Both the position numbers and the translations under genes were made by a program. A stretch of DNA of 64,000 bases from an archaeon (GTDB taxonomy: Archaea > Iainarchaeota > Iainarchaeia > Iainarchaeales > JAAZKV01), in NCBI GenBank assembly GCA_041661245.1, contig JBAZUY010000002.1, positions 178,153 to 242,152 of the forward strand, written 5' to 3'. Shown one piece after another: positions 24,622 through 47,288 of the stretch (its first letter is position 1; each line of letters starts with the position of its first letter). The notes beneath the pieces were generated by a model that did not search any database, was not told where the DNA came from, and saw only the letters and a list, made by a program, of their open reading frames with translations.

Positions 24622-24771
24622 TTATCCAACCCAAGTGAAAGATTTTTGACCAGCAGAACTTGTGCTTGATGGAACATATCCTTTTTTTTGAGGGCAAACA
24701 GCCCCTTTGATGAATTGGGTTTTTGAATCATCATTAACTTGAATCGGTTCTCCATCAGCAAACAGCATCAT
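24622..24771 (-). CDS. unannotated 49-aa partner ORF of the beta-helix gene (ends QKSFTWVG)
   Basis: My translation: MMLFADGEPIQVNDDSKTQFIKGAVCPQKKGYVPSSTSSAGQKSFTWVG. It starts 2 nt after the upstream stop. Its C-terminus is shared with the ORF at 26537-26692. Confidence 0.45.
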   Translation of the reverse strand: MMLFADGEPIQVNDDSKTQFIKGAVCPQKKGYVPSSTSSAGQKSFTWVG

Positions 24772-26536: not shown

Positions 26537-26692
26537 TTATCCAACCCAAGTAAAAGATTTTTGTGTGCTACAACTAGTGCCACTTGAAGGAGTGTAAGTA
26601 CTTATTGAGGGAACAATCCCCCCAGCCAGAAAAGCATTTTTTACTGGAATTTGTAACCCCAATGCTTGCCCCCTAACCACAATCATTGTCAT
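26537..26692 (-). CDS. unannotated 51-aa partner ORF (ends QKSFTWVG)
   Basis: My translation: MTMIVVRGQALGLQIPVKNAFLAGGIVPSISTYTPSSGTSCSTQKSFTWVG. It starts 1 nt after the upstream stop. Confidence 0.45.
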   Translation of the reverse strand: MTMIVVRGQALGLQIPVKNAFLAGGIVPSISTYTPSSGTSCSTQKSFTWVG

Positions 26693-37713: not shown

Positions 37714-38385
37714 ATGCATACTAAAGCACAAGGAACAACTGAATATTTAGTTATTATTGGAGTAGTAGTAGTGCTTGCACTTGTAGTAGTAGGAATATCA
37801 TTTGGACTACTCTCAGGCAGTAGCGATGCTAATGCCAAACAAACAAGATTATTTTGGGCTTCCCAAGAAGTTGCAATCACTGATGCAATAGCTGACTCAG
37901 CAGGAAATGCAACACTTGTAATACGAAATAATACTATTGATTCAATTACAATAAATTATATAATCTCTGACGGAACTAATTCACAAATTGTTTCTTCAGA
38001 TAGAAACACAATATATCGTGGAGAAAAAGGAACTTACAATTTTACTGGATTTGCTGCATGTACTGGGACTACAAAGACCTATGACTTGGCAATTAATTAC
38101 AACTCAGGGTATGGACTTGCAAAAAGCACTTCAACTAATCCGTTGGTAATTGATTGCAGAAGCGGAGCATCCAATTCAGCAAATTTTGATTTCCCCCTAA
38201 TTACAAACCCAATAACTGGAGCATTCCCAGTATACGATGGAACTCAATCAGGGTGGGTTGAATCAGGAAATAATGCTGGAGGAGTAACAATTAATCCTGA
38301 TGCAAATGCATTATGCTTTAATGGAAGTACTTGCGATGCAAACATTTCACAAATAGATGGAAACTTAGTTTTCGCAGTTAATTAA
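37714..38385 (+). CDS. class III signal peptide (pilin-like) protein
   Basis: Starts MHTKAQGTTEYLVIIGVVVVLALVVVG. It shares the pilin-domain motif (AITDAIADSAGNATLVIRNN) with the 20729 and 46440 proteins. Confidence 0.65.
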   Translation: MHTKAQGTTEYLVIIGVVVVLALVVVGISFGLLSGSSDANAKQTRLFWASQEVAITDAIADSAGNATLVIRNNTIDSITINYIISDGTNSQIVSSDRNTIYRGEKGTYNFTGFAACTGTTKTYDLAINYNSGYGLAKSTSTNPLVIDCRSGASNSANFDFPLITNPITGAFPVYDGTQSGWVESGNNAGGVTINPDANALCFNGSTCDANISQIDGNLVFAVN

Positions 38386-38460: not shown

Positions 38461-39423
38461 ATGGACGCAAGCAAATCCTTGATTTGCTTTGTTGCGTGCG
38501 CCGTGCCTGCACTAGCGCCGGCAAAACACTCTCCAAATGTTTATATGGGGTTAGAAGGAATAGATGTAACATCGGGTTTTGTGATGGAAAAACAATTAAT
38601 TGTCAAATTAACAAAGACTTTTGAAGATTTTGCGCATAAGAAAGACGGCGTTGAATTTTGGTTTGCGAGAGATTTGCAAACTCTTTTAGGGTATGACAAA
38701 TGGGAAAATTTTTCAACAGTTATTGAGAAGGCTAAAGAATCATGCAAGAATTCAGGATTTGACGCAAAGAACCATTTTCCCGACGTTAGGAAAATGGTAG
38801 GGCTTGGATCTGGTTCCGAAAGAGAAATTTTAGATTACACACTAACTCGGTATGCTTGTTATTTAATAGCACAAAACGGAGACCCAAGAAAAGAAGAGAT
38901 TGCTTTTGCGCAAAGTTATTTTGCTATCCAAACAAGAAAACAAGAATTAATTGAACAAAGAATTAAACTCGTTGAAAGAGTACAAGCAAGAAAAAAATTA
39001 ACAGAATCAGAGACAGAACTATCAAAACTCATTTATGAACGAGGAGTTGATGCTGACGGGTTTGCAAGAATTCGAAGCAAAGGAGATTTTGCACTATTTG
39101 GAGGAAATGACACAAACCAAATGAAACAAAAATTAAGTATTCCAAAAAACAGACCATTAGCTGATTTTTTGCCAACTGTAACAATTGCTGCAAAAAACTT
39201 GGCGACAGAGCTAACCAACTTCAATGTAAAACAAAACGATTTGGAAGGAGAAGTAAAAATATCCTCAGAACACATAAAAAATAACAAAGAAATGCGAAAT
39301 GTTTTAGCAAAAAACAAAATTATTCCTGAAAACTTACCTGCTGAAGAAGACCTTAAAAAACTAGAACGAAATGTAAAAAAAGATGAGAAAAAGCTTTACT
39401 CAAAAATAAACAAATCAAAATAA
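38461..39423 (+). CDS. dinD: DNA damage-inducible protein D (DinD)-like protein
   Basis: FEDFAHKKDGVEFWFARDLQTLLGYDKWENFSTVIEKAK matches my recollection of the DinD family. The true start is probably the ATG at 38584 (MEKQLIV...), because the upstream 41 codons are GC-rich and look non-coding. Confidence 0.65.
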   Translation: MDASKSLICFVACAVPALAPAKHSPNVYMGLEGIDVTSGFVMEKQLIVKLTKTFEDFAHKKDGVEFWFARDLQTLLGYDKWENFSTVIEKAKESCKNSGFDAKNHFPDVRKMVGLGSGSEREILDYTLTRYACYLIAQNGDPRKEEIAFAQSYFAIQTRKQELIEQRIKLVERVQARKKLTESETELSKLIYERGVDADGFARIRSKGDFALFGGNDTNQMKQKLSIPKNRPLADFLPTVTIAAKNLATELTNFNVKQNDLEGEVKISSEHIKNNKEMRNVLAKNKIIPENLPAEEDLKKLERNVKKDEKKLYSKINKSK

Positions 39424-40122
39424 TTAATCCTTTTTCTCTTCTTCCACAGGTTTCTTTCTTTTCCAAAGTCCAAATCCATCAAAGATACTGATTTCAAATA
39501 ACAAATACAATGGAAGGAATAATATTGTTTGACCAATTACATCCATTGGAGTGAATGGGCAAAATATTACAAACGCAAATATGGCAACAGCAACCATGGG
39601 CCTTTGTTTTGCTAATTTGTCCCGATTAATCCATCCCTTCTTTATTACATACCTCAACGGAATTGGAAACAAAAAGATTAATCCTGTTCCGAAAGAAACT
39701 GTTAGAATTGTTGTTAAAAGATTTCCATAATCCCAAAGAGAAGTAATTCCAATTGCTTTGTTTAATTCAACAAAATAGGGAACAACAAATTTAGTATAAG
39801 TTACTGCTCCAACAATTATTCCTGCTAAGAATAAAAATAAACCAAAAATAGAAGATTTTATTGCAAATTCTTTTTCTTCCTTATAGAGCGCACCCCACGC
39901 ATAAGACATAAAACTAATTACTGCCAAGGGAGCATACAAAAGTAAACCCGCTAAAACCCCGGTTTCCATTAGAGCCATAAATGAATTAACAGGATTAATA
40001 CTAACTACTTCAACAGATCCAACAAGGGAAACGAGAAACTTAGCTAGGTCCATTGAAAAGAACAAGCCAATGCAAAGCGCTAACACGAGCGCAATTGCAT
40101 TAGCAATTAATAGATTTCGCAC
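39424..40122 (-). CDS. tatC: twin-arginine translocase subunit TatC (short form)
   Basis: 232 aa with six TM helices. The FMALMETGVLAGLLLYAPLAVISFMSYAWGALYKEEKE region matches the conserved TatC TM2-TM3 loop (PGLY..E). Confidence 0.7.
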   Translation of the reverse strand: MRNLLIANAIALVLALCIGLFFSMDLAKFLVSLVGSVEVVSINPVNSFMALMETGVLAGLLLYAPLAVISFMSYAWGALYKEEKEFAIKSSIFGLFLFLAGIIVGAVTYTKFVVPYFVELNKAIGITSLWDYGNLLTTILTVSFGTGLIFLFPIPLRYVIKKGWINRDKLAKQRPMVAVAIFAFVIFCPFTPMDVIGQTILFLPLYLLFEISIFDGFGLWKRKKPVEEEKKD

Positions 40123-40126
40123 AAAA

Positions 40127-40321
40127 TCACTTTTTCTTTGCTTTTGTTTTTACTGCTTTGCCTTCACTAGCGTCAGCAAAAGCTTTCTTTGCTTCACCAA
40201 GTGATTTAGCCCACTCAATTACTTTTGGTGCTCCGAAAAGCAATATTACTGCTAAAACAACTATGATTAGCACTGTGTCTGTTATTCCAAACATTGATAA
40301 TTCCTCCAATAAAACTAACAC
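40127..40321 (-). CDS. tatA: twin-arginine translocase subunit TatA/E
   Basis: MFGITDTVLIIVVLAVILLFGAPKVIEWAKSLGEAKKAF shows the TatA pattern: TM helix, FG hinge, amphipathic helix. The likely start is the ATG at 40294. Confidence 0.7.
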   Translation of the reverse strand: MLVLLEELSMFGITDTVLIIVVLAVILLFGAPKVIEWAKSLGEAKKAFADASEGKAVKTKAKKK

Positions 40322-40359: not shown

Positions 40360-41211
40360 CTATTTCGCAAGAGTGTTATCGTACATTTCTTTTACTTCTG
40401 TTGCACTTAGTGGTCTTCTCCAAATGGATAGATCTTGAATTGAACCAGTAAAATAATTATTTGTATTTACTCCATCAAAGTTTGCCCCAATGTATAATGG
40501 AGAAGTGTTTGTGAAATCTACTCCTTCAACTAAAGAACACAAGTCCTTTTCCACTAGTTTACCATCAATAAATCTCTGGCAATTACCAAAGTGATCTACC
40601 GAATAAACTAAGAAGTGATAATTTGATGCTGTGCTAGGGATACTTGCGTCATACACTACTTTTTCCCCATCAGCTAGTTTTAGAGATACTTCTGAAGATT
40701 GTTTAGTGTAAACTCCAAACCCAACCGAGTTTGTATTTGTATCCATTTTGGATAAGATTGTGGAGTTTTCTTTTGGAGAATATTTTACCCATAAAGCAAT
40801 TGTAAACCCTTGTTTTGGTGCAAAGTTTAACAAAGAATTATTTTCGACTTTAATGTACCCATTCCCATTGAAATTAATTGCTTTCTTTCCCCACATACCA
40901 TCAATATAATTTACTGAAGTTGCTTGTCCGTCCAAACCATTACCGCTTGAATCAAAAGTGTCCCCGTTAAAGTGCCACATTGCGGCTAAACCAGCAGCAA
41001 CATAATTGTCTTTTTCCACTACTTGATTATTAATTGTAACCACATTACTATCTGCTTCAATTGCACCTGAAGAAGTTCTTGGGACAACACTAGGAGTTGG
41101 ATTGAGTAAGAAATTTAGTCCCATAACAAGAACAGCTAATACAATTAGAATAACAAAAGCAATTCCCAAATATTCCAAAATTTTATTCCCAGTAACCTTC
41201 ATACAAACCAC
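40360..41211 (-). CDS. membrane-anchored LamG / concanavalin-like lectin domain protein
   Basis: N-terminal TM helix. WHFNGDTFDSSGNGLDGQ...AINFNGNGYI...FTIALWVK...SIWRRPLSATEV follows the typical LamG-jellyroll pattern. Confidence 0.6.
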   Translation of the reverse strand: MVCMKVTGNKILEYLGIAFVILIVLAVLVMGLNFLLNPTPSVVPRTSSGAIEADSNVVTINNQVVEKDNYVAAGLAAMWHFNGDTFDSSGNGLDGQATSVNYIDGMWGKKAINFNGNGYIKVENNSLLNFAPKQGFTIALWVKYSPKENSTILSKMDTNTNSVGFGVYTKQSSEVSLKLADGEKVVYDASIPSTASNYHFLVYSVDHFGNCQRFIDGKLVEKDLCSLVEGVDFTNTSPLYIGANFDGVNTNNYFTGSIQDLSIWRRPLSATEVKEMYDNTLAK

Positions 41212-41338
41212 TTAAACTAACTTTTAATTTTCTAGACTCTTTAAACTATTAATAACAAACTACTATCCACTTTGTCCACTTGATATAAGTGAATCCAACT
41301 ATAAAAATGTTTTGAGAGAGAAAACCCCCAAAAAATAA

Positions 41339-41809
41339 TCAACTAATTACACTAGTTGATTTAATGCTTGCCCCGGAATTTATCCCGGTCCCTTGTAAAA
41401 CAAAAAACTTAATCGCCATTGCTTTTGGATAACCTGGATAAAGATAAGTATTTCTAAAATGCATTGACGCAACTTTTGGATAATTTGGAGGAACATAATT
41501 ATTCTTGAATTTAATTGCTTTAAACTTTGGCCACCCAAAATTCAAATTTGCATTTGTATGGAAAGCCAAAAGCTTGGGATACCCGGGATAAGTATAGTTG
41601 TTTAGGGTGTTAAACGCCAATAATTTTGGATAGTTTGGAGGAACATAATTATTGTTAATTGCAAAACCTTTGAGAGTTGCGGTTGGGATTAGCCAAAAAT
41701 TCAACGCTTTTACTCTTAACCCTGAACTTTGTGTTTGAAAATTAATTCCTTTAACTTGAGGAGTTCTATCTGTTTGAAAATTAAGCCCTTTTATTGTTGG
41801 ATTAGACAT
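41339..41809 (-). CDS. 9-repeat micro-protein partner (fused triple version of the 3-repeat ORFs)
   Basis: 156 aa with nine units: PTIKGLNF, PQVKGINF, LRVKALNF, ATLKGFAI, PKLLAFNT, PKLLAFHT, PKFKAIKF, PKVASMHF, PKAMAIKF. Confidence 0.6.
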   Translation of the reverse strand: MSNPTIKGLNFQTDRTPQVKGINFQTQSSGLRVKALNFWLIPTATLKGFAINNNYVPPNYPKLLAFNTLNNYTYPGYPKLLAFHTNANLNFGWPKFKAIKFKNNYVPPNYPKVASMHFRNTYLYPGYPKAMAIKFFVLQGTGINSGASIKSTSVIS

Positions 41810-41814
41810 TCAAA

Positions 41815-43134
41815 TCACGCTGAGACATCGTCAGTTCTAAGAGTCAATCTTACTTGAATAAATCTTCCAGAAACTGGAGTTATGGGCATTTCCAATTTTA
41901 CTTCAGTCCAAGCAATAGTTCCATCATCTTGATTAAATGAAGTACCACTACCCCTCACTTCAATTGTTTGGTAATTTGGTTTTGTGTCAGAAGTAGTTGT
42001 ATCAACCATTGTTGTCCCCCAGGTTTGATCAACAGCAAGATTGATTTGTTTAATTGCTTGAACACTTCCAAAATCATATACAGGGGACCAAATTACCCCC
42101 GCCGTTCCACCAATTAACTCAAAAAATCCAGTTGTGCCATTCTTGCCAACATTTCCATCAGGATTATACCATCCTGAATTATCATGCCCTGCATCAGGAA
42201 TAATATTCCAATTACTTTGCGGATCATAAGCTTGTCCTCTTGCGTAACCAAAAGGGATTGCTCCTTGAGTAGATGAAATACTTGAAGCAGTTGTCAAATA
42301 AAATATTTCATTCGCAGGATCAGCAAAATTTGGATTAGCAGAAATACTACTTGCATCAAAACCAACGGCTTGCCAAGCTGCCAAAGTAGCATAAGTGCCC
42401 CCGCCAGTAATCCAACCACTTGTGATTGAATAATAATGATTTTTAATTATTATTGCCGATGCAAGGTTAGCATTTGAAGTGCCTGTCCTAAAGGCATAAG
42501 TACAATTTGAAACAATATTATTCATAAAAACTATCGGGAATGCGGCTTGATTTGCAAAAGTTTGATATAACGCATATCCACAATTGTAAAAGGTGTTATT
42601 TACAACCGTATTAATAACTGTAGAATTATTTGCGGATAAATAAATCGCATAATTTGCTCCACTAAATCCAGAAAACAAACAATTTTGAATTATTGTAGGG
42701 GCAGTGTATACTGTGTTATAAATTGCAGCAGTTTGTCCATTAGAATAAAACTCTACCCCTTGTACTGATAAGGTAGTAAGAACAGGAGTATTCAAATAAA
42801 GCAGATACGACCCAATATGATTCTTTATTATTAATTTTCCACCTGTCGAATAAGGAGCAAAGGATTTGGTTTGTGTCCCTGCAATGTTAATCGTTATTGC
42901 ATTTCCTGAAGCAAGACTTGTCCCATCAAGAATTACAGTCCCATCAAAATAAATTGTTCCATTGAAAGTAGAAGGGATAGTTATTTTTTCATTATACGTC
43001 CCGCTTCCTATCACTAATGCGTCTCCAGTAGTTGTAAGAAGATTTGCCCCTGCTTGAATAGTTAATTTTGCTAGTGCGGCGGTTGTTCCATTGTTTGAAT
43101 CCGAACCGGATTTGTTTACATAATATGTTGCCAT
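41815..43134 (-). CDS. right-handed beta-helix protein, subfamily A (no signal peptide)
   Basis: Starts MATYYVNKSGSDSNNGTTAALAKLTIQAG. C-terminus is ...RFIQVRLTLRTDDVSA. An AGGTGA Shine-Dalgarno sequence and an in-frame TGA lie upstream. Confidence 0.7.
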   Translation of the reverse strand: MATYYVNKSGSDSNNGTTAALAKLTIQAGANLLTTTGDALVIGSGTYNEKITIPSTFNGTIYFDGTVILDGTSLASGNAITINIAGTQTKSFAPYSTGGKLIIKNHIGSYLLYLNTPVLTTLSVQGVEFYSNGQTAAIYNTVYTAPTIIQNCLFSGFSGANYAIYLSANNSTVINTVVNNTFYNCGYALYQTFANQAAFPIVFMNNIVSNCTYAFRTGTSNANLASAIIIKNHYYSITSGWITGGGTYATLAAWQAVGFDASSISANPNFADPANEIFYLTTASSISSTQGAIPFGYARGQAYDPQSNWNIIPDAGHDNSGWYNPDGNVGKNGTTGFFELIGGTAGVIWSPVYDFGSVQAIKQINLAVDQTWGTTMVDTTTSDTKPNYQTIEVRGSGTSFNQDDGTIAWTEVKLEMPITPVSGRFIQVRLTLRTDDVSA

Positions 43135-43151: not shown

Positions 43152-44456
43152 TTATGCTTGAACATTATTATTTCTTAATGTGATTCTAAATTGAATGTAT
43201 TGCCCTGTAATGGAGGGAGTTATTGTTCCATTGTATCTTACTTCTGTCCAACTTGGAGAAGCATCTCCTTGATTGTATGTTGAGTTACTTACTCTTACTT
43301 CCATTGTTTGTGCATTTGGTTGAGTATCAGTTCCAGTTGTGTCCACCATATTTGTTGGCCAATATTGAACCGTTGCTAAATTTATTCTTGAAAAAGTTGC
43401 TACCCCACTCAAATTATATACTGGCGACCAAAGAACTCCTGCAGTCCCGCCAGAGAGTTCAAAAGATCCTGTTGTTCCACTTTTTGTAATATTTCCGTCG
43501 GGGTTGTACCAACCCGAATTATCTGCCGTGCCCGTAATAATCCACTTTGAATCAGAATCATTTCCTGCCCCTCTTGATAAACCAAAAGGATAAGCTCCAA
43601 CTTTCGGACCCAAAGGAGAAACTGTTTCTAAAAAGAAAACTTCATTTGCAGGATCTGTAAGGGTTGGATCTTCAAAAATACTTCCCTGTTCAAATCCTGC
43701 TACTTGTGCTTGTGCCAGAGTAGTGTATGTGTTAGCAACATTTCTCCAATTTGTAATATTATAAAACTGATTATTAAAAGAAACTAACGTTGCATTTGTA
43801 GCAGATACTTGGTACCAAGCGGTTGTAATATTTGAGAAAATATTATTCCACATGTAGGTTAAATGAGTTTGAGGTGCATAGAATCCAGTTCCACACCCAT
43901 AAAATGTATTATAGTAAATACTACTTGTTGCAGAATATCCACTATTTGATTGAACTGCATAAGTGAATGCTCCGCTAAAAACACAATAACTCATATTTAT
44001 TGCACAAGTTTGTCCTCCCCCACCATAACAAGATACTCCAATAGTATTAGTTGGAGAATACCTAAAAACACAATTGTTCAAATAATAAACTGTAGTTGTA
44101 TTAACCGCTAAATATAACAATGCGGCTCCAACATTATTTTGGAAAATCCATTGACCGCCAGTAGTATATGCTCCAATAGTATACGAGGTTCCTGCTCCCC
44201 CAGACATTTGGAAAAGATACCCACTACCAAATCCACTACCATCTACAATAACTGTTCCGTCAGCATAAAAGTTTCTTAGAGTGGAAGAAGGTCTTTCGTT
44301 GTACAACCCCGAACCCACAATTATTGTGTCTCCGGATGCAGAACCTGTAATCGCTCCGCTAATTGTTAACTTTGGCCCAGTTATTCCACTAACAAAAGTT
44401 TGAGAAGTACCATCATAGGAGTCACTTCCACTTTTGTTTACATATTTTATTGCCAT
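43152..44456 (-). CDS. right-handed beta-helix protein, subfamily A (no signal peptide)
   Basis: Starts MAIKYVNKSGSDSYDGTSQTFVSG. C-terminus is ...QYIQFRITLRNNNVQA. Confidence 0.7.
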   Translation of the reverse strand: MAIKYVNKSGSDSYDGTSQTFVSGITGPKLTISGAITGSASGDTIIVGSGLYNERPSSTLRNFYADGTVIVDGSGFGSGYLFQMSGGAGTSYTIGAYTTGGQWIFQNNVGAALLYLAVNTTTVYYLNNCVFRYSPTNTIGVSCYGGGGQTCAINMSYCVFSGAFTYAVQSNSGYSATSSIYYNTFYGCGTGFYAPQTHLTYMWNNIFSNITTAWYQVSATNATLVSFNNQFYNITNWRNVANTYTTLAQAQVAGFEQGSIFEDPTLTDPANEVFFLETVSPLGPKVGAYPFGLSRGAGNDSDSKWIITGTADNSGWYNPDGNITKSGTTGSFELSGGTAGVLWSPVYNLSGVATFSRINLATVQYWPTNMVDTTGTDTQPNAQTMEVRVSNSTYNQGDASPSWTEVRYNGTITPSITGQYIQFRITLRNNNVQA

Positions 44457-44473: not shown

Positions 44474-45784
44474 TTATGCTTGAACACCATTATTTCTCAT
44501 TGTTAATCTAACTTGGAAATATCTCCCGCTCACTGCAGAGATTGCAACATTGTATTTTACTTCAACCCAACTTATTACTCCATCATTCTGATTAAAAGTA
44601 CTACCACTTGCACGAAGTTCTACGGTTTGATAATTTGGACGAACATCACTTGCAGTTGCATCAACCATATTTGTCGGCCAATATTGAGTAGAAGCTAAAT
44701 CAACTTCAGTCACTGTTACACTATTTCCTAAATCATAAATTGGAGAATATAACACTGCAACATTCCCATTTGTTAACTCAAAGAATCCTGTTGTTCCATT
44801 CTTAGTTGCATTTCCATCCGGATTATACCAACCAGAATTATCTGCGGTCCCAGTAATATTCCAAGTTGAACCAACATCATTTGCTGCACCCAAAGTAAAA
44901 CCAAATGGATACGCTCCAATATCCGCCCCAACAGGAGAAACAACTTTTGGATAAAATATTCCATTCGAGGGGTCAGTTAATTGAGGATCTACTGAAACTG
45001 AGTTTACTTCAAAACCTGCGGCTTGAATCAATGCTAAAGAATCATAGTCTTGATTATAGGGATGCCATTTGGAAACGTTGTACTCATGATTATTAATGGT
45101 AGTTGGCATAAGGGAGGTAGAAAAACTTAAGTACCACGCGTAAGTACAAGTGTGGAGCATATTTTGATAAAAATTATTTTCCATTCTAACAGTCCCATAA
45201 AGAGCATACGTGAGATTATAGAAAGTATTATTGTAAATACTATTAGTACTGCTTGGAGCTTGTCCTTGTCCTCCAACAGCACCAATCCCAGTACCTCCAA
45301 AAGTACTATTAGAAAAAACACAATGGTGTATTGCTAAATAATTATAACCTGCAGTGCCTGCGTAAATACCATACGTATTTCCAAATTGCATATTAAACGT
45401 ACAACTTGAAATGTAAAAATAAGCAACAGTGTTTGTTCCAGTTCCGGCAGAATATATAATGGAGGTACCAATATTATTTTGGAAAACCCACTGCCCCCCA
45501 GTTGAAGCAGCTGCAATAGATAAAGCAAAAGTAGCATTTCCAGACCATGACAGAAGCGGACCAGAAGAAAGAGAATAACCATCCCATATAACAATTCCAT
45601 CCGCTAACAAAGTTGTGGTTTTATTTGCAATAGAACATTTTTCATTATAAAGACCACTCCCGACAATAAGGGTATCATTAGTAGCAAGTAAATTAATTCC
45701 GGCTTGAATAGTCAATTTTGCTAAAGCCGCAGTAGTGCCATTATTTGCATTATCCCCACTTTTGTTTACGTAATATGTTGCCAT
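44474..45784 (-). CDS. right-handed beta-helix protein, subfamily A (no signal peptide)
   Basis: Starts MATYYVNKSGDNANNGTTAALAKLTIQAG. C-terminus is ...RYFQVRLTMRNNGVQA. Confidence 0.7.
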   Translation of the reverse strand: MATYYVNKSGDNANNGTTAALAKLTIQAGINLLATNDTLIVGSGLYNEKCSIANKTTTLLADGIVIWDGYSLSSGPLLSWSGNATFALSIAAASTGGQWVFQNNIGTSIIYSAGTGTNTVAYFYISSCTFNMQFGNTYGIYAGTAGYNYLAIHHCVFSNSTFGGTGIGAVGGQGQAPSSTNSIYNNTFYNLTYALYGTVRMENNFYQNMLHTCTYAWYLSFSTSLMPTTINNHEYNVSKWHPYNQDYDSLALIQAAGFEVNSVSVDPQLTDPSNGIFYPKVVSPVGADIGAYPFGFTLGAANDVGSTWNITGTADNSGWYNPDGNATKNGTTGFFELTNGNVAVLYSPIYDLGNSVTVTEVDLASTQYWPTNMVDATASDVRPNYQTVELRASGSTFNQNDGVISWVEVKYNVAISAVSGRYFQVRLTMRNNGVQA

Positions 45785-45793
45785 TTTTATTTT

Positions 45794-46450
45794 TCACCAT
45801 GTACTTATTGCTACTCTTTTCCAAGAATTGGTTGCGACACAAATGTAAACGTAATTTGCATCCCAACAAATATCTCCTTGTGTTCCTGCTGCTGTTGCAC
45901 TTGCAGGAGTTTTTGCGGTTCTTATTCTTATTCCATCATCTAAAATATCTAGTTTTCTTGTTGGAGCATTTGTTCCAATTCCTACTCTATTATTCAAAGC
46001 ATCAGTATAAATCAAATACTGATCGCCCACACTTTTTACATTAAATGAATCAGCAGCAGCATTTCCAAGTCCACTATTAACCACTAAACCTTTTGAAATG
46101 GTGGATTGCGCTGTTCCCCCAGTTATTGTTAAATATTTATTTGTATAATCCCAAGTAAAGTTTGCATTTCCTGAGATTGCACTTGGACCTATTCCGTAAG
46201 CAATTTGATTGTTCGCAATTGTTGGAGCAACATTAAGGAAACCTTCAACTGGATAATTTACCCCTCTGCTTCTGAAAACTAATCCTGAAGCATTAGCTAC
46301 TCCTGACAAGCCAATTACTCCAACACCAATTGCCCCTGCAATTAGTGCTTTTTTCTTTAGTGATTCTCTAAAATCTAAATCGGGTGTATCAACTGGAGTT
46401 GAACCGAAGAATTGTTTCTTTTTCTTTTCGATGTATTCTTCAAGATCCAT
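45794..46450 (-). CDS. Tat-like (xR) signal peptide protein with a tail-fibre-like mature domain, operon head 3
   Basis: Signal FRESLKKKALIAGAIGVGVIGLSGVANA|SG. The mature part contains NRVGIGTNAPTRKLDI and the C-terminal GDICWDANYVYICVATNSWKRVAISTW. Confidence 0.6.
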   Translation of the reverse strand: MDLEEYIEKKKKQFFGSTPVDTPDLDFRESLKKKALIAGAIGVGVIGLSGVANASGLVFRSRGVNYPVEGFLNVAPTIANNQIAYGIGPSAISGNANFTWDYTNKYLTITGGTAQSTISKGLVVNSGLGNAAADSFNVKSVGDQYLIYTDALNNRVGIGTNAPTRKLDILDDGIRIRTAKTPASATAAGTQGDICWDANYVYICVATNSWKRVAISTW

Positions 46451-47288
46451 CGCTAATCACCGTATTACCATTTTCGTCAATATACATTTTTCCCAAATTA
46501 TTATCTAATGAAGTAATAGTTATTGAGGGATTAGATTTGTAAACATTAAGATCCATTGTTACTGGATTTGTTAATCCTGCTCCGCCCCCTCCGCAAGTTC
46601 CCCAACTTAATGCACCGCTAACTATTTTCAGACAATTACCATCTTGTCCGGTGTAATCTGGTAAACTTGATCCTCCTTGGCATGCTTGAACTTCTCCCTG
46701 CGCTACACACACTACATTATTTATTCCTTCAAAATTCCAAGTAACATTATCTTTTTTTCCCAACACTAATGCTTCTCCTCCAGAGATTAATTTTTGGGTT
46801 TGATTTAGCGGAGAGTAATAAAATAATATTTTGTCATACGCACAACCATTACTTGTTGGACATACTCCAATATCCGGAAAGAAAATTGCTTTTTGTTCTT
46901 TTGGATTAAATACAATTCCATTTCCACTAATTGTGAATTCATTTTCATCAACTTTGTAACCAATTAAACGCAAACCAAACTCAGTATTGTTTGTTAAAAC
47001 AAAAACAGCATCCCCGTTTTCATCAACCATCGCATCTGCTAACGCAATTGTTTGAGTACTCCAATATTGTTTATTTTGAATAGAAGTCAAGTTTGGACTT
47101 TTTGCTCCTCCCTCAAAAACTGTAACAAACAAAGTTATTGCAGCAATAGAAATTACAATTATTACAACTACAATTGTTAAGTATTCAGTTATCCCTTGCG
47201 CCCTCTCCGATACCCGCGCTCTATTCCCAACAAAACCCATGCGTAATATTAGTCTTAAGTAGTTAAAAAAGGTTTTCTTAATGAACAA
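46440..47288 (-). CDS. class III signal peptide (pilin-like) protein
   Basis: Contains RAQGITEYLTIVVVIIVISIAAITL. The likely start is the ATG at 47240 (MGFVGNRARVSERAQG...). It overlaps the next gene by 11 nt. Confidence 0.6.
   Translation of the reverse strand: MFIKKTFFNYLRLILRMGFVGNRARVSERAQGITEYLTIVVVIIVISIAAITLFVTVFEGGAKSPNLTSIQNKQYWSTQTIALADAMVDENGDAVFVLTNNTEFGLRLIGYKVDENEFTISGNGIVFNPKEQKAIFFPDIGVCPTSNGCAYDKILFYYSPLNQTQKLISGGEALVLGKKDNVTWNFEGINNVVCVAQGEVQACQGGSSLPDYTGQDGNCLKIVSGALSWGTCGGGGAGLTNPVTMDLNVYKSNPSITITSLDNNLGKMYIDENGNTVISDGS

What the first reader, a model, noticed from the sequence alone, without database searches (positions are those of the whole stretch)
41339..41809. Nine-repeat micro-protein after three beta-helix genes: a 3-repeats-per-gene stoichiometry
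In unit 3, the three beta-helix genes (44474-45784, 43152-44456, 41815-43134) are packed 17 nt apart with no micro-ORF between them.

Instead, a single 156-aa ORF follows. By my count it has nine units of the same motif: PTIKGLNF, PQVKGINF, LRVKALNF, ATLKGFAI, PKLLAFNT, PKLLAFHT, PKFKAIKF, PKVASMHF, PKAMAIKF.

In unit 2 there are four genes with 3 repeats each. Here there are three genes with one protein of 9 repeats.

A constant ratio of three repeats per beta-helix gene argues that each repeat is a functional binding or assembly unit. For example, one strand could bind per subunit of a trimer, with the 9-mer acting as a fused triple adaptor. It also argues that the micro-ORFs are real genes.
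Basis: seen in the sequence. Interest (0 to 1): 0.8.

Follow-up and report, generated by a model that had tools for sequence, protein, structure and literature searches.

The report
Repeat mini-protein beside tailspike-like genes
A real but undescribed small protein, made of nine short beta-strand motifs, closes an operon of three phage-type beta-helix (tailspike-like) genes; in related loci its motif count rises with the number of beta-helix genes but not at a fixed three per gene, so it looks like a modular docking or assembly partner.

Summary
The 156-aa ORF (41339-41809, minus strand) is real. It has nine copies of P-x-[LVI]-[KQ]-[AGS]-[IFLV]-x-[IFL]; shuffles average 0.19. The repeat exists at protein level only.

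It belongs to a tiny, unannotated family of about 25-30 proteins. Members always sit directly after genes of one beta-helix (BH) family, in uncultured tailed phages and in this archaeal genome. Purifying selection (dN/dS 0.22-0.55) shows the micro-ORFs are genes.

m156 is a composite of three triplet blocks. Block 1 matches the stand-alone micro-proteins that follow BH699/BH439-type genes. Blocks 2 and 3 match those that follow BH434-type genes elsewhere.

Across 21 complete runs, repeat number rises with BH-gene number (Spearman 0.75). The ratio is 3 in 10 runs, 2 in 8 and 4 in 3. Near-identical alleles carry 3, 4 or 5 repeats, and the same MAG has one BH gene with 4 repeats. The constant 3:1 trimer stoichiometry is therefore not supported, but "one homotypic block per BH gene" often holds.

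AlphaFold2 finds no autonomous fold (pLDDT 43). The module also forms the N-terminus of long fibre-like proteins.

Best reading: a multivalent, fold-on-binding adaptor or assembly partner of BH tailspikes. This mechanism is inferred, not shown.

The parts
41339..41809 (-). m156: 156-aa micro-protein with nine P-x-[LVI]-[KQ]-[AGS]-[IFLV]-x-[IFL] repeats. It is the last gene of the operon.
   Evidence: the identical protein (P0001) is on record on a 306-kb contig.
41681..41809 (-). Block 1 (aa 1-43): three 13-14-aa repeats of the 'xKGxNFQT' type.
   Evidence: Best matches are the L014 micro-protein (z 17.7) and m65 (z 13.9). These follow BH699-type genes, and BH699 is one of the nearer relatives of BH439 (61% C-terminal identity, third among window paralogues after BH441 at 67%).
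41531..41680 (-). Block 2 (aa 44-93): three 16-17-aa repeats with NNYVPPNYPK and YPGYPK linkers.
   Evidence: Best match is the L005 micro-protein (z 11.4). The L005 beta-helix is closest to BH434.
41339..41530 (-). Block 3 (aa 94-134) plus the C-terminal Ser/Thr-rich tail GTGINSGASIKSTSVIS.
   Evidence: The linkers parallel those of block 2 (29 of 30 nt identical in NNYVPPNYPK), while the cores differ. Best matches are the L028b and L005 micro-proteins.
41314..41338 (-). T-rich tract directly after the m156 stop codon; probable end of the operon.
   Evidence: Sequence TTATTTTTTGGGGGTTTTCTCTCTC. Its role as a terminator is inferred.
41815..43134 (-). BH439: right-handed beta-helix plus a C-terminal beta-sandwich; no signal peptide.
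   Evidence: AlphaFold2 pLDDT 91.4. Foldseek gives weak hits to phage tail fibres, tailspikes, polysaccharide lyases and GH136 enzymes. Pfam gives only a sub-threshold DUF5123 hit.
43152..44456 (-). BH434, a paralogue about 45% identical.
   Evidence: L001b is its orthologue (72% identity in the C-terminal domain).
44474..45784 (-). BH436, a paralogue.
   Evidence: L001a is its orthologue.
45794..46450 (-). Starter protein of unit 3: an N-terminal hydrophobic, Tat-like segment and a C-terminus resembling a phage tail protein.
   Evidence: PHROG 17312, tail protein, E 1.7e-10. The signal-like segment is read.
29146..36351 (-). Unit 2: four BH genes, each followed by its own 3-repeat micro-ORF (34058-34255, 32263-32475, 30689-30880, 29146-29340).
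36404..37153 (-). Starter protein of unit 2, with a KR-type Tat-like signal.
   Evidence: TIGR01409 scores 15.4 bits against a cut-off of 16.7.

Best explanation
**What it is.** m156 belongs to a small, previously undescribed family of accessory proteins. These proteins are co-translated with a specific family of phage-type beta-helix (tailspike or depolymerase-like) proteins.

**Architecture.** Each member has three parts:
- a short conserved N-terminus, M-[AS]-[ND]-(E)-P;
- a variable number (2-9) of Pro-capped amphipathic beta-strand motifs, separated by 5-12-residue linkers;
- a lineage-specific C-terminal tail.

**Proposed mechanism (inferred).** Alone the protein has no fold. Each motif, in homotypic blocks of two or three, docks as an added beta-strand onto a cognate BH protein. 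One micro-protein would therefore tether or co-assemble the products of all BH genes in its run. In fused versions it would also tether an extra distal domain. m156 would be the three-block version serving BH436, BH434 and BH439.

**What is shown:**
- it is a coding gene;
- it is conserved in synteny with BH genes and translationally coupled to them;
- its repeats fall into blocks;
- repeat number scales with BH-gene number;
- no autonomous fold is predicted;
- the module occurs as the N-terminus of larger proteins.

**What is inferred:** physical binding to BH proteins, beta-strand augmentation, and which block binds which BH protein.
For: **It is a gene**
- dN/dS is 0.22-0.55 in six pairwise comparisons.
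- Family members were recovered by two independent searches.

**Position and coupling**
- The gene always lies 0-27 nt (or a 4-nt overlap) after the last BH gene of a run, in the window and in L003, L005, L008, L010, L012, L013, L014, L019, L021, L025, L026 and L028-L033.
- Its reading frame relative to the BH gene varies, so it is a separate cistron (coordinates).

**Motif**
- Across 106 repeats, Pro occupies position 1 in 82%, with hydrophobic residues at +2, +5 and +7 and a small residue at +4. Spacing is 13-20 residues.

**Block structure**
- In m156 the similarity scores between adjacent cores are 28, 23 | 4, 5, 24 | -1, 5, 6.
- Thirteen of fourteen 4-repeat members score high-low-high, that is 2+2. 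L028b is 3+3.

**Blocks travel with BH types**
- The 'LKAFNxQT[DE]' block follows BH699/BH439-type genes in window unit 2, window unit 3, L014 and L028.
- 'NNY.PPN.PK'-linker blocks follow BH434-type beta-helices in L005, and the related L028b micro-protein follows L028c.

**Scaling**
- Repeat number correlates with BH-gene number, rho 0.75.

**No autonomous fold**
- The AlphaFold2 model of m156, built with a 16-sequence alignment, has pLDDT 42.7 and no secondary structure. The BH439 model has pLDDT 91.4.

**N-terminal anchor-like use**
- In L011 (821+ aa) and L026 (991 aa) the module is followed by a poly-Ser linker and a globular domain.

**BH proteins lack an attachment domain**
- They begin directly with the beta-helix (alignment). 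In phage loci they follow a 700-1200-aa fibre gene.
Against: - No direct evidence of binding exists.
- A low pLDDT with a 16-sequence alignment does not prove disorder.
- The block-to-gene correspondence fails in L003 and L012a (1 BH gene, 2 blocks), possibly in L013b (3 BH genes if the one before the HNH gene is counted, 2 blocks), and in L014 (one block of 5).
- Some BH runs are seen without any micro gene between members (L001, L004, L007). Those contigs end before the run does.
- Adjacent-repeat similarity and the co-occurrence of blocks with BH types are also expected from tandem duplication and co-inheritance alone.
- The correlation is not corrected for phylogeny, and the repeat counts were curated by eye.
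Confidence: 0.4

Rival explanations
1. Transient folding or assembly chaperone. The micro-protein helps the BH proteins fold or oligomerise and is then released. Known parallels are phage tail-fibre assembly proteins encoded just downstream of fibre genes, and LnbY, which is needed for the beta-helix enzyme LnbX.
For: - The gene lies immediately downstream of the BH gene and is translationally coupled to it.
- It is small and has no predicted fold of its own.
- The BH439 model gives weak Foldseek matches to GH136 LnbX-type structures. LnbX is reported to need the chaperone LnbY (PMC10884991).
- Downstream tail-fibre chaperones are documented for the phages Pam3 and V22 (PMC9608196 and PMC10579305).
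Against: - Pfam, PHROGs and NCBIfam give no match to any chaperone family.
- The module occurs as the N-terminus of 800-1000-aa structural-looking proteins, which is unusual for a released chaperone.
- Many BH genes inside a run have no micro gene of their own.
Confidence: 0.2
2. Self-assembling mini-fibre. The repeats build a homotrimeric beta-structured shaft, like a triple beta-spiral or triple beta-helix. Repeat number would set its length, and the tail would form a small tip.
For: - The repeats are 13-20 residues long, with a conserved Pro and hydrophobic positions.
- Repeat number is variable.
- Obligate trimeric fibre folds are expected to be poorly modelled as single chains, consistent with pLDDT 43.
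- The fused versions look like a fibre: N-terminal repeats, a linker and a globular domain.
Against: - The motif does not fit the 15-residue triple beta-spiral consensus, which has hydrophobic residues at c, e, g, k and m and Pro/Gly at j (PMC3150272). Here the hydrophobic residues lie at +2, +5 and +7 after the Pro, and nothing is conserved in the 3-7 positions before the next Pro.
- Spacing varies from 13 to 17 residues within a single protein.
- Heterotypic blocks within one chain, and scaling with BH-gene number, are not explained by a simple shaft.
Confidence: 0.12
3. One reading: exactly three repeats per BH gene, because one strand binds each subunit of a BH homotrimer, with m156 as a fused triple adaptor.
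For: The ratio is 3 in 10 of 21 complete runs. These include all five runs in the window, and L028 with 3 repeats after 1 BH gene and 3+3 after 2. m156 is a composite of three triplets.
Against: - The ratio is 2 in 8 runs and 4 in 3 runs.
- One BH gene has 4 repeats in the same MAG.
- The orthologues m65 and L014 have 3 and 5 repeats.
- Alleles carry 5, 4 or 3 repeats.
- L033a has at least 4 identical repeats after one BH gene.
- Trimer formation by these BH proteins was not tested.
Confidence: 0.1
4. Inhibitor or substrate mimic. An extended repeat peptide occupies the polysaccharide-binding groove of the BH enzymes and keeps them inactive until they are assembled or exported.
For: There is only indirect support: tight co-expression with a probable glycan-degrading beta-helix, and an extended, periodic, non-globular nature.
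Against: - No precedent was found and there is no specific evidence.
- The fused N-terminal versions and the conserved tails are not explained.
- No catalytic activity of the BH proteins has been demonstrated.
Confidence: 0.04
5. Not a functional gene: a chance ORF, or a repetitive intergenic DNA element read as protein.
For: There is no database annotation and no Pfam, PHROG or NCBIfam family. Only the protein itself was found by single-sequence search.
Against: - Protein-level conservation with synonymous divergence; for example, L013b versus L008 has 19.5 synonymous and 16.5 non-synonymous differences, dN/dS 0.22.
- No DNA tandem repeat.
- Nine motifs against 0.19 expected by chance.
- Homologues in at least 15 loci, always in the same position.
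Confidence: 0.02

Closest known systems
Phage tail-fibre assembly or chaperone proteins encoded directly downstream of receptor-binding protein genes (lambda Tfa and Mu U' type; cyanophage Pam3 gp25, PMC9608196; the Alteromonas phage V22/A5 'chaperone caps', PMC10579305)
   Same: A small gene lies immediately 3' of the fibre or tailspike gene. It is cognate to that gene, travels with it between genomes, and occurs in tailed-phage structural modules.
   Different: There is no sequence or profile similarity. The protein is built from 2-9 short strand motifs of variable number rather than a globular domain. One copy can follow two or three different BH genes. The module is also used as the N-terminus of long proteins.
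Branched multi-tailspike complexes (phage CBA120 TSP1-4, PMC8825819)
   Same: Several paralogous beta-helix tailspike genes lie in tandem and must be joined into one receptor-binding complex.
   Different: In CBA120 the joining is done by N-terminal domains of the tailspikes themselves. Here the BH proteins start directly with the beta-helix, and a separate micro-protein is the candidate connector. That role is inferred.
GH136 lacto-N-biosidase LnbX with its designated chaperone LnbY (PMC10884991, citing Sakurama et al. 2013)
   Same: A right-handed beta-helix glycan-active protein depends on a dedicated partner protein. BH439 gives weak Foldseek hits to GH136 structures.
   Different: The micro-proteins found no match to LnbY or any other solved or annotated protein. 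The Foldseek TM-scores are low (0.2-0.3). No catalytic residues were examined.
Triple beta-spiral fibre shafts (adenovirus fibre, reovirus sigma1; PMC3150272)
   Same: Pseudo-repeats of about 15 residues with a conserved Pro or Gly and hydrophobic positions; variable repeat number; viral attachment context.
   Different: The hydrophobic pattern and Pro position do not fit the a-o consensus. Spacing is irregular, and there is no head domain in the stand-alone micro-proteins.
Scaffoldin-type multivalent docking arrays (cellulosome cohesin-dockerin logic; from general knowledge)
   Same: The concept matches: a chain of repeated docking units whose number and type match the set of enzymes to be assembled.
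   Different: Here the units are roughly 8-residue strands rather than folded domains, and docking is unproven.

Membership tests
Phage tail-fibre assembly proteins (Pfam Caudo_TAP / Tfa-like; PHROG tail-assembly families) | Significant profile match to the family | tested here: not met
   Pfam, PHROGs and NCBIfam scans of m156 and m63 return no tail-assembly family.
Phage tail-fibre assembly proteins (Pfam Caudo_TAP / Tfa-like; PHROG tail-assembly families) | Gene immediately downstream of, and co-oriented with, a receptor-binding protein gene in a tailed-phage structural module | tested here: met
   This holds for L028, L029, L030, L031, L032 and L033, and for the contig carrying P0042. Terminase, portal, HK97-type capsid and SU10 adaptor genes are nearby.
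Phage tail-fibre assembly proteins (Pfam Caudo_TAP / Tfa-like; PHROG tail-assembly families) | Required for folding or oligomerisation of the fibre, and binds its distal end | not testable with these tools
   This needs co-expression or a multimer prediction.
Triple beta-spiral fibre repeat | 15-residue a-o repeat with hydrophobic residues at c, e, g, k and m, and Pro/Gly at j (PMC3150272) | tested here: not met
   The logo of 106 repeats has Pro at position 1 and hydrophobic residues at +2, +5 and +7 only. Spacing is 12-20 residues, with modes at 13 and 17 (compared).
Triple beta-spiral fibre repeat | Obligate homotrimer | not testable with these tools
   Only single-chain AlphaFold2 was available. 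That model has pLDDT 42.7.
Right-handed parallel beta-helix tailspike / pectate-lyase superfamily (for the BH partners) | Right-handed beta-helix fold | tested here: met
   The AlphaFold2 model has pLDDT 91.4 with stacked short strands over residues 1-290. Foldseek hits include phage tail fibres and tailspikes, PL6 and rhamnogalacturonan lyases, and pectin methylesterases. Pfam Beta_helix matches the unit-1 paralogue.
Right-handed parallel beta-helix tailspike / pectate-lyase superfamily (for the BH partners) | Homotrimer with an N-terminal virion-attachment domain (classical tailspike) | tested here: inconclusive
   There is no N-terminal domain ahead of the helix. Oligomeric state was not tested. 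Foldseek TM-scores to tailspikes are only 0.15-0.25.
Twin-arginine (Tat) signal peptides (for the unit starter proteins) | TIGR01409 / S-R-R-x-F-L-K motif above the cut-off | tested here: inconclusive
   Two of the three starter proteins score 15.4 bits against a cut-off of 16.7, with KR in place of RR. The third has no hit.

The most novel reading that the evidence does not exclude
The micro-proteins are miniature scaffoldins. Each homotypic block of two or three 8-residue strand motifs would be a specific docking site for one BH paralogue, so the block composition of the micro-protein encodes which tailspike enzymes are assembled into one complex.

In this archaeon the phage module would have been domesticated. 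A starter protein with a Tat-type signal, the signal-less BH enzymes and the micro-protein would be pre-assembled in the cytoplasm and exported together as 'hitch-hikers'. The TatA and TatC genes lie between the units. This would give a small symbiotic archaeon a phage-derived, glycan-targeting surface apparatus.
Probability: 0.15. Interest if true: 0.8.

Novelty: new variant of a known kind. Interest (0 to 1): 0.5.

Why it matters
If the docking model is right, this is an unusually simple and readable assembly code. A string of 8-residue motifs, whose number and type track the adjacent enzyme genes, would decide which tailspike-like depolymerases are combined. That would matter for three reasons.

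- It would help predict the receptor-binding repertoires of uncultured phages.
- It would suggest a minimal scaffold for engineering multivalent depolymerase complexes.
- It would point to phage receptor-binding modules being reused by an archaeon with a small genome, possibly for attachment to a host.

Even on the conservative reading, the work defines a new protein family. It has about 25-30 members and no annotation, and it has a clear genomic signature. It also corrects the attractive but over-general '3 per gene' rule.

Tried and rejected
- **Single-sequence search with m156.** It found only itself. Family members appeared only with a profile.
- **Large 'hits' in the exhaustive search.** P0017, P0019, P0020, P0022-P0025, P0027 and P0028 are cadherin, LRR or other tandem-repeat proteins. 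They match through low-complexity periodicity, are not in BH contexts, and were discarded.
- **AlphaFold2 of m156 alone.** The model has no usable structure, so no fold search was run on it.
- **Programmed frameshift or read-through joining BH and micro.** In the window most micro-ORFs are in the -1 frame relative to the BH gene. Across loci the relative frame is 0, +1 or -1 (coordinates), so this was rejected.
- **A DNA-level repeat or regulatory element.** Rejected.
- **The micro repeat as a copy of the last BH beta-strand (…YVQVRLTFR…).** The hydrophobic register differs on inspection, so this was not pursued.
- **Cultured-phage databases.** tblastn of BH439 and of m156 against 50,697 phage records gave nothing significant.
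- **PDB sequence search with the BH profile.** Nothing significant.
- **A Mantel-type covariation test between BH proteins and blocks.** Not run, because co-inheritance of neighbouring genes would produce the same signal.
Full report
**1.

ORF 41339-41809 on the minus strand encodes 156 aa starting with ATG.

The loose pattern [PLA]x[LIVFA]x[AGS][LIVFM]x[FILT] occurs nine times. In 20,000 shuffles of the protein it averages 0.19 and never exceeds 4. Among 321 ORFs of at least 40 aa in the window, the only other short ORFs with three matches are the four micro-ORFs of unit 2.

Tandem Repeats Finder sees no DNA array, so the periodicity is in the protein.

The three upstream BH genes are 17 nt apart. 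The near-identical spacers carry GGTGA and hold no ORF. m156 begins 5 nt after the BH439 stop codon and is followed by a T-rich tract.

**2. The micro-ORFs are genes, and form a family**

A profile of the window's micro-proteins plus those found in related loci recovered 13 proteins from 5.8 billion clusters. It recovered 23 from an exhaustive scan of 1.84 billion representatives. About half of the latter are true members. The rest are unrelated tandem-repeat proteins.

No member has a Pfam, PHROG or NCBIfam match.

Pairwise codon comparisons give dN/dS of 0.22-0.55. For L013b versus L008 there are 19.5 synonymous and 16.5 non-synonymous differences over 96 codons.

The family architecture has three parts:
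- an N-terminus M-[AS]-[ND]-(E)-P;
- n repeats;
- a lineage-specific tail, such as ...GPTYWLNG..., ...PPTTIKTASFNSETTLL, ...YxGxFYxG..., or a Ser/Thr-rich ...IKSxSxIS tail as in m156.

A logo of 106 repeats reads P(82%)-[KQR]-[LVI]-[KQ]-[AGS]-[IFLV]-x-[IFL]. Spacing is 12-20 residues, with modes at 13 and 17.

**3. The partner and the context**

The seven BH paralogues in units 2 and 3 are about 45% identical. They begin directly with the helix ('MATYYVNKSGSD...') and have no signal peptide.

The AlphaFold2 model of BH439, built from 55 homologues, has pLDDT 91.4. It shows a right-handed beta-helix (about residues 1-290) and a C-terminal beta-sandwich. Foldseek gives weak matches to phage tail fibres and tailspikes, polysaccharide lyases, pectin methylesterases and GH136 enzymes.

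The BH family is rare:
- 2 loci among 185,579 species-representative genomes;
- 12 loci in the JGI metagenome set;
- 69 protein clusters;
- none in 50,697 deposited phage genomes.

Most longer contigs that carry it are tailed phages:

| Locus | Neighbouring genes |
|---|---|
| L031 | terminase and portal/Mu-F genes |
| L033 | HK97-type capsid genes and protease |
| contig carrying P0042 | SU10-type adaptor and DNA polymerase A |
| L029 | collagen-like fibre, SNF2, DnaB |
| L013 | also listed in the IMG/VR viral collection (as L015) |

In these phages the order is: long fibre gene, then one to three BH genes, then the micro gene, then a conserved gene of about 50 aa.

The window itself is cellular and archaeal in character. 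It carries XPD with an HBB domain, TatC/TatA, GrpB and HAD genes, and class-III-signal pilin-like ORFs. There are no capsid or terminase genes.

In the window each unit starts with a small protein with a Tat-like hydrophobic N-terminus. The C-termini of two of these three starters (28482-29009 and 45794-46450) match phage tail or virion families; the unit-2 starter 36404-37153 has no PHROG hit.

**4. The stoichiometry claim**

I counted repeats and the uninterrupted run of BH genes directly upstream for 21 complete runs (summary).

| BH genes in run | Repeat counts observed |
|---|---|
| 1 | 2, 2, 2, 3 (eight runs), 4, 4, 4 |
| 2 | 4 (five runs), 6 |
| 3 | 9 |

Repeat number rises with BH number. 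Spearman rho is 0.75 overall and 0.68 outside the window, with no phylogenetic correction. The ratio, however, is 3 in ten runs, 2 in eight and 4 in three.

Direct counter-examples to a fixed 3:1 ratio:
- The same MAG carries a lone BH gene plus an 85-aa micro-protein with 4 repeats. This is L003/P0006/P0041, on the same 306-kb contig.
- The BH699-m65 pair has an orthologue, L014, with 76% identity in the BH C-terminal domain. Its micro-protein has 5 repeats rather than 3.
- P0002, P0004 and P0012 are near-identical proteins with 5, 4 and 3 repeats. L013 and L021 have the same gene order with 5 and 4 repeats.
- L033 has at least four identical 17-aa units after one BH gene, broken by an assembly gap.

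Examples that support the pattern are L028 (1 BH gene with 3 repeats, then 2 BH genes with 3+3), and L005, L029 and L032 (1 BH gene with 3 repeats each).

**5. Block structure: the more general pattern**

Repeats come in homotypic blocks. In m156 the similarity scores between adjacent cores are 28, 23 | 4, 5, 24 | -1, 5, 6.

Blocks 2 and 3 share linker syntax: NNYVPPNYPK, identical at 29 of 30 nt, then YPGYPK. Their cores differ between blocks. Within a block, cores are similar at protein level but not at DNA level. For example, cores 5 and 6 share 7 of 8 aa but only 15 of 24 nt.

Thirteen of fourteen 4-repeat proteins score high-low-high, that is 2+2, and L028b is 3+3. The block count equals the BH-gene count in most complete runs. 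It does not in L003, L012a, possibly L013b, and L014.

m156 is a composite:
- Block 1 is most similar to the L014 micro-protein and to m65 (z 17.7 and 13.9).
- Block 2 is most similar to the L005 micro-protein (z 11.4).
- Block 3 is most similar to the L028b and L005 micro-proteins (z 13.5 and 11.4).

These stand-alone relatives follow BH genes related to those of unit 3. The BH699 and L014 C-termini are among the nearer relatives of BH439's: 61% and 65% identity, against 67% for BH441 and 68-69% for L003, L030 and L032. The L005 and L028c beta-helices are closest to BH434, at 43% and 53%.

This fits modules of 'BH type plus block type'. Co-inheritance alone would give the same picture.

**6. 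Mechanism**

AlphaFold2 gives m156 no fold: pLDDT 42.7 and no secondary structure, with a 16-row alignment.

The motif is a Pro-capped strand with hydrophobic residues on both faces (+2 with a small residue at +4, and +5 with +7). That is the pattern of a strand buried in an interface.

The module is also the N-terminus of long proteins. In L011 (821+ aa) and L026 (991 aa) it is followed by poly-Ser and a globular domain. In fibre proteins the N-terminus is usually the attachment end; this point rests on general knowledge of phage fibres.

The BH proteins lack any attachment domain of their own.

The explanation I consider most likely (about 0.4) is a multivalent, fold-on-binding adaptor or assembly partner. 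It would dock onto BH proteins by strand addition and hold together the products of a BH gene run.

Rivals, in order of weight:
- A transient chaperone (0.2).
- A self-assembling trimeric mini-fibre (0.12). The repeat does not fit the triple beta-spiral consensus.
- The strict 3:1 trimer model (0.1).
- An inhibitor or substrate mimic (0.04).
- A non-gene (0.02).

**7. Comparison with known systems, and novelty**

In function it resembles the accessory genes that follow phage receptor-binding protein genes (PMC9608196, PMC10579305). It also addresses the connector problem that N-terminal domains solve in the CBA120 tailspikes (PMC8825819).

It is not a member of any of those families by sequence or profile.

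Several features look new:
- a repeat architecture of variable number;
- organisation of the repeats into blocks;
- scaling of repeat number with the number of adjacent BH genes;
- presence in an archaeal chromosome next to tatA and tatC.

I found no paper describing such a protein.

I classify it as a new variant of a known kind, with interest 0.5. The attractive stoichiometric rule is only a lineage-level tendency, and the mechanism is inferred.

Noticed in passing
window 36404-37153 (-), 28482-29009 (-), 45794-46450 (-); tatC 39424-40122 (-), tatA 40127-40321 (-): Each BH unit starts with a small protein whose N-terminus reads ...S[KR]R[DN]SLKKAAIGAAA...VANA|SG. This looks like a KR-variant Tat signal (TIGR01409 scores 15.4 bits against a cut-off of 16.7 for two of the three). 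The C-termini of 28482-29009 and 45794-46450 match phage tail or virion PHROGs; 36404-37153 has no PHROG hit. TatC and TatA are encoded between units 2 and 3. The BH and micro-proteins have no signal peptide, so co-export as Tat 'hitch-hikers' is conceivable.
   Followed up: partly
window 26537-26692 (-) and 24622-24771 (-): The two unit-1 micro-ORFs (51 and 49 aa) follow larger BH genes of a different subfamily. They lack the PxLKAF repeats but end in 'QKSFTWVG'. This resembles the 'NDSVFTWFID' end of the L008/L013b class of micro-proteins, so they may be repeat-poor relatives.
   Followed up: no
L011 3230-5692; L026 11335-14310: The micro module (2-4 repeats plus GPTYWLNGxPVGDLF) forms the N-terminus of 800-1000-aa proteins. 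These consist mostly of poly-serine, with one globular domain of about 170 aa.
   Followed up: partly
L033 9341-9703: A micro-ORF built of identical 17-aa units (PRIKAIKIDNTGVYKPK) is interrupted by a run of N. The assembler seems to have collapsed the repeat, so the true copy number is unknown but at least 4.
   Followed up: partly
L004 3623-4669; L013 2680-3513; L021 2003-2836; L026 9169-10020: Cys-rich genes of about 280-350 aa, resembling zinc-finger or HNH proteins, are inserted between BH genes in several phage loci. They look like homing-endonuclease-type insertions. They have no Pfam hit.
   Followed up: no
L005 4473-4622; L028 10813-10965; L029 5064-5231; L030 9798-9965; L033 11136-11288: A conserved gene of about 50 aa ('ME.K.EEM...ELKAL.YDQ...LE....N...LQ.E..KR') always follows the micro gene in phage loci. 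A protein of about 110-140 aa comes next. Neither has a Pfam match.
   Followed up: no
window 41531-41680 versus 41339-41530: The linker NNYVPPNYPK is 29 of 30 nt identical between blocks 2 and 3 of m156, while the flanking 24-nt cores are only about 50% identical. Either gene conversion is confined to the linker, or the cores have diverged rapidly.
   Followed up: partly
window 38461-39423 (+), 37714-38385 (+), 46440-47288 (-), 40360-41211 (-): The BH units are interleaved with a Bro-N domain protein, two ORFs with archaeal class-III (pilin-like) signal sequences, and a LamG / TafC-like protein. This suggests a surface-structure or mobile-element island.
   Followed up: partly
loci carrying P0042 and P0072, and L028 (gene tables): Phage contigs that carry this BH family encode peptidoglycan hydrolases (NlpC/P60, Amidase_2, Hydrolase_2), which imply bacterial hosts. 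The window and L003 are archaeal. The module seems to cross the domain boundary.
   Followed up: no
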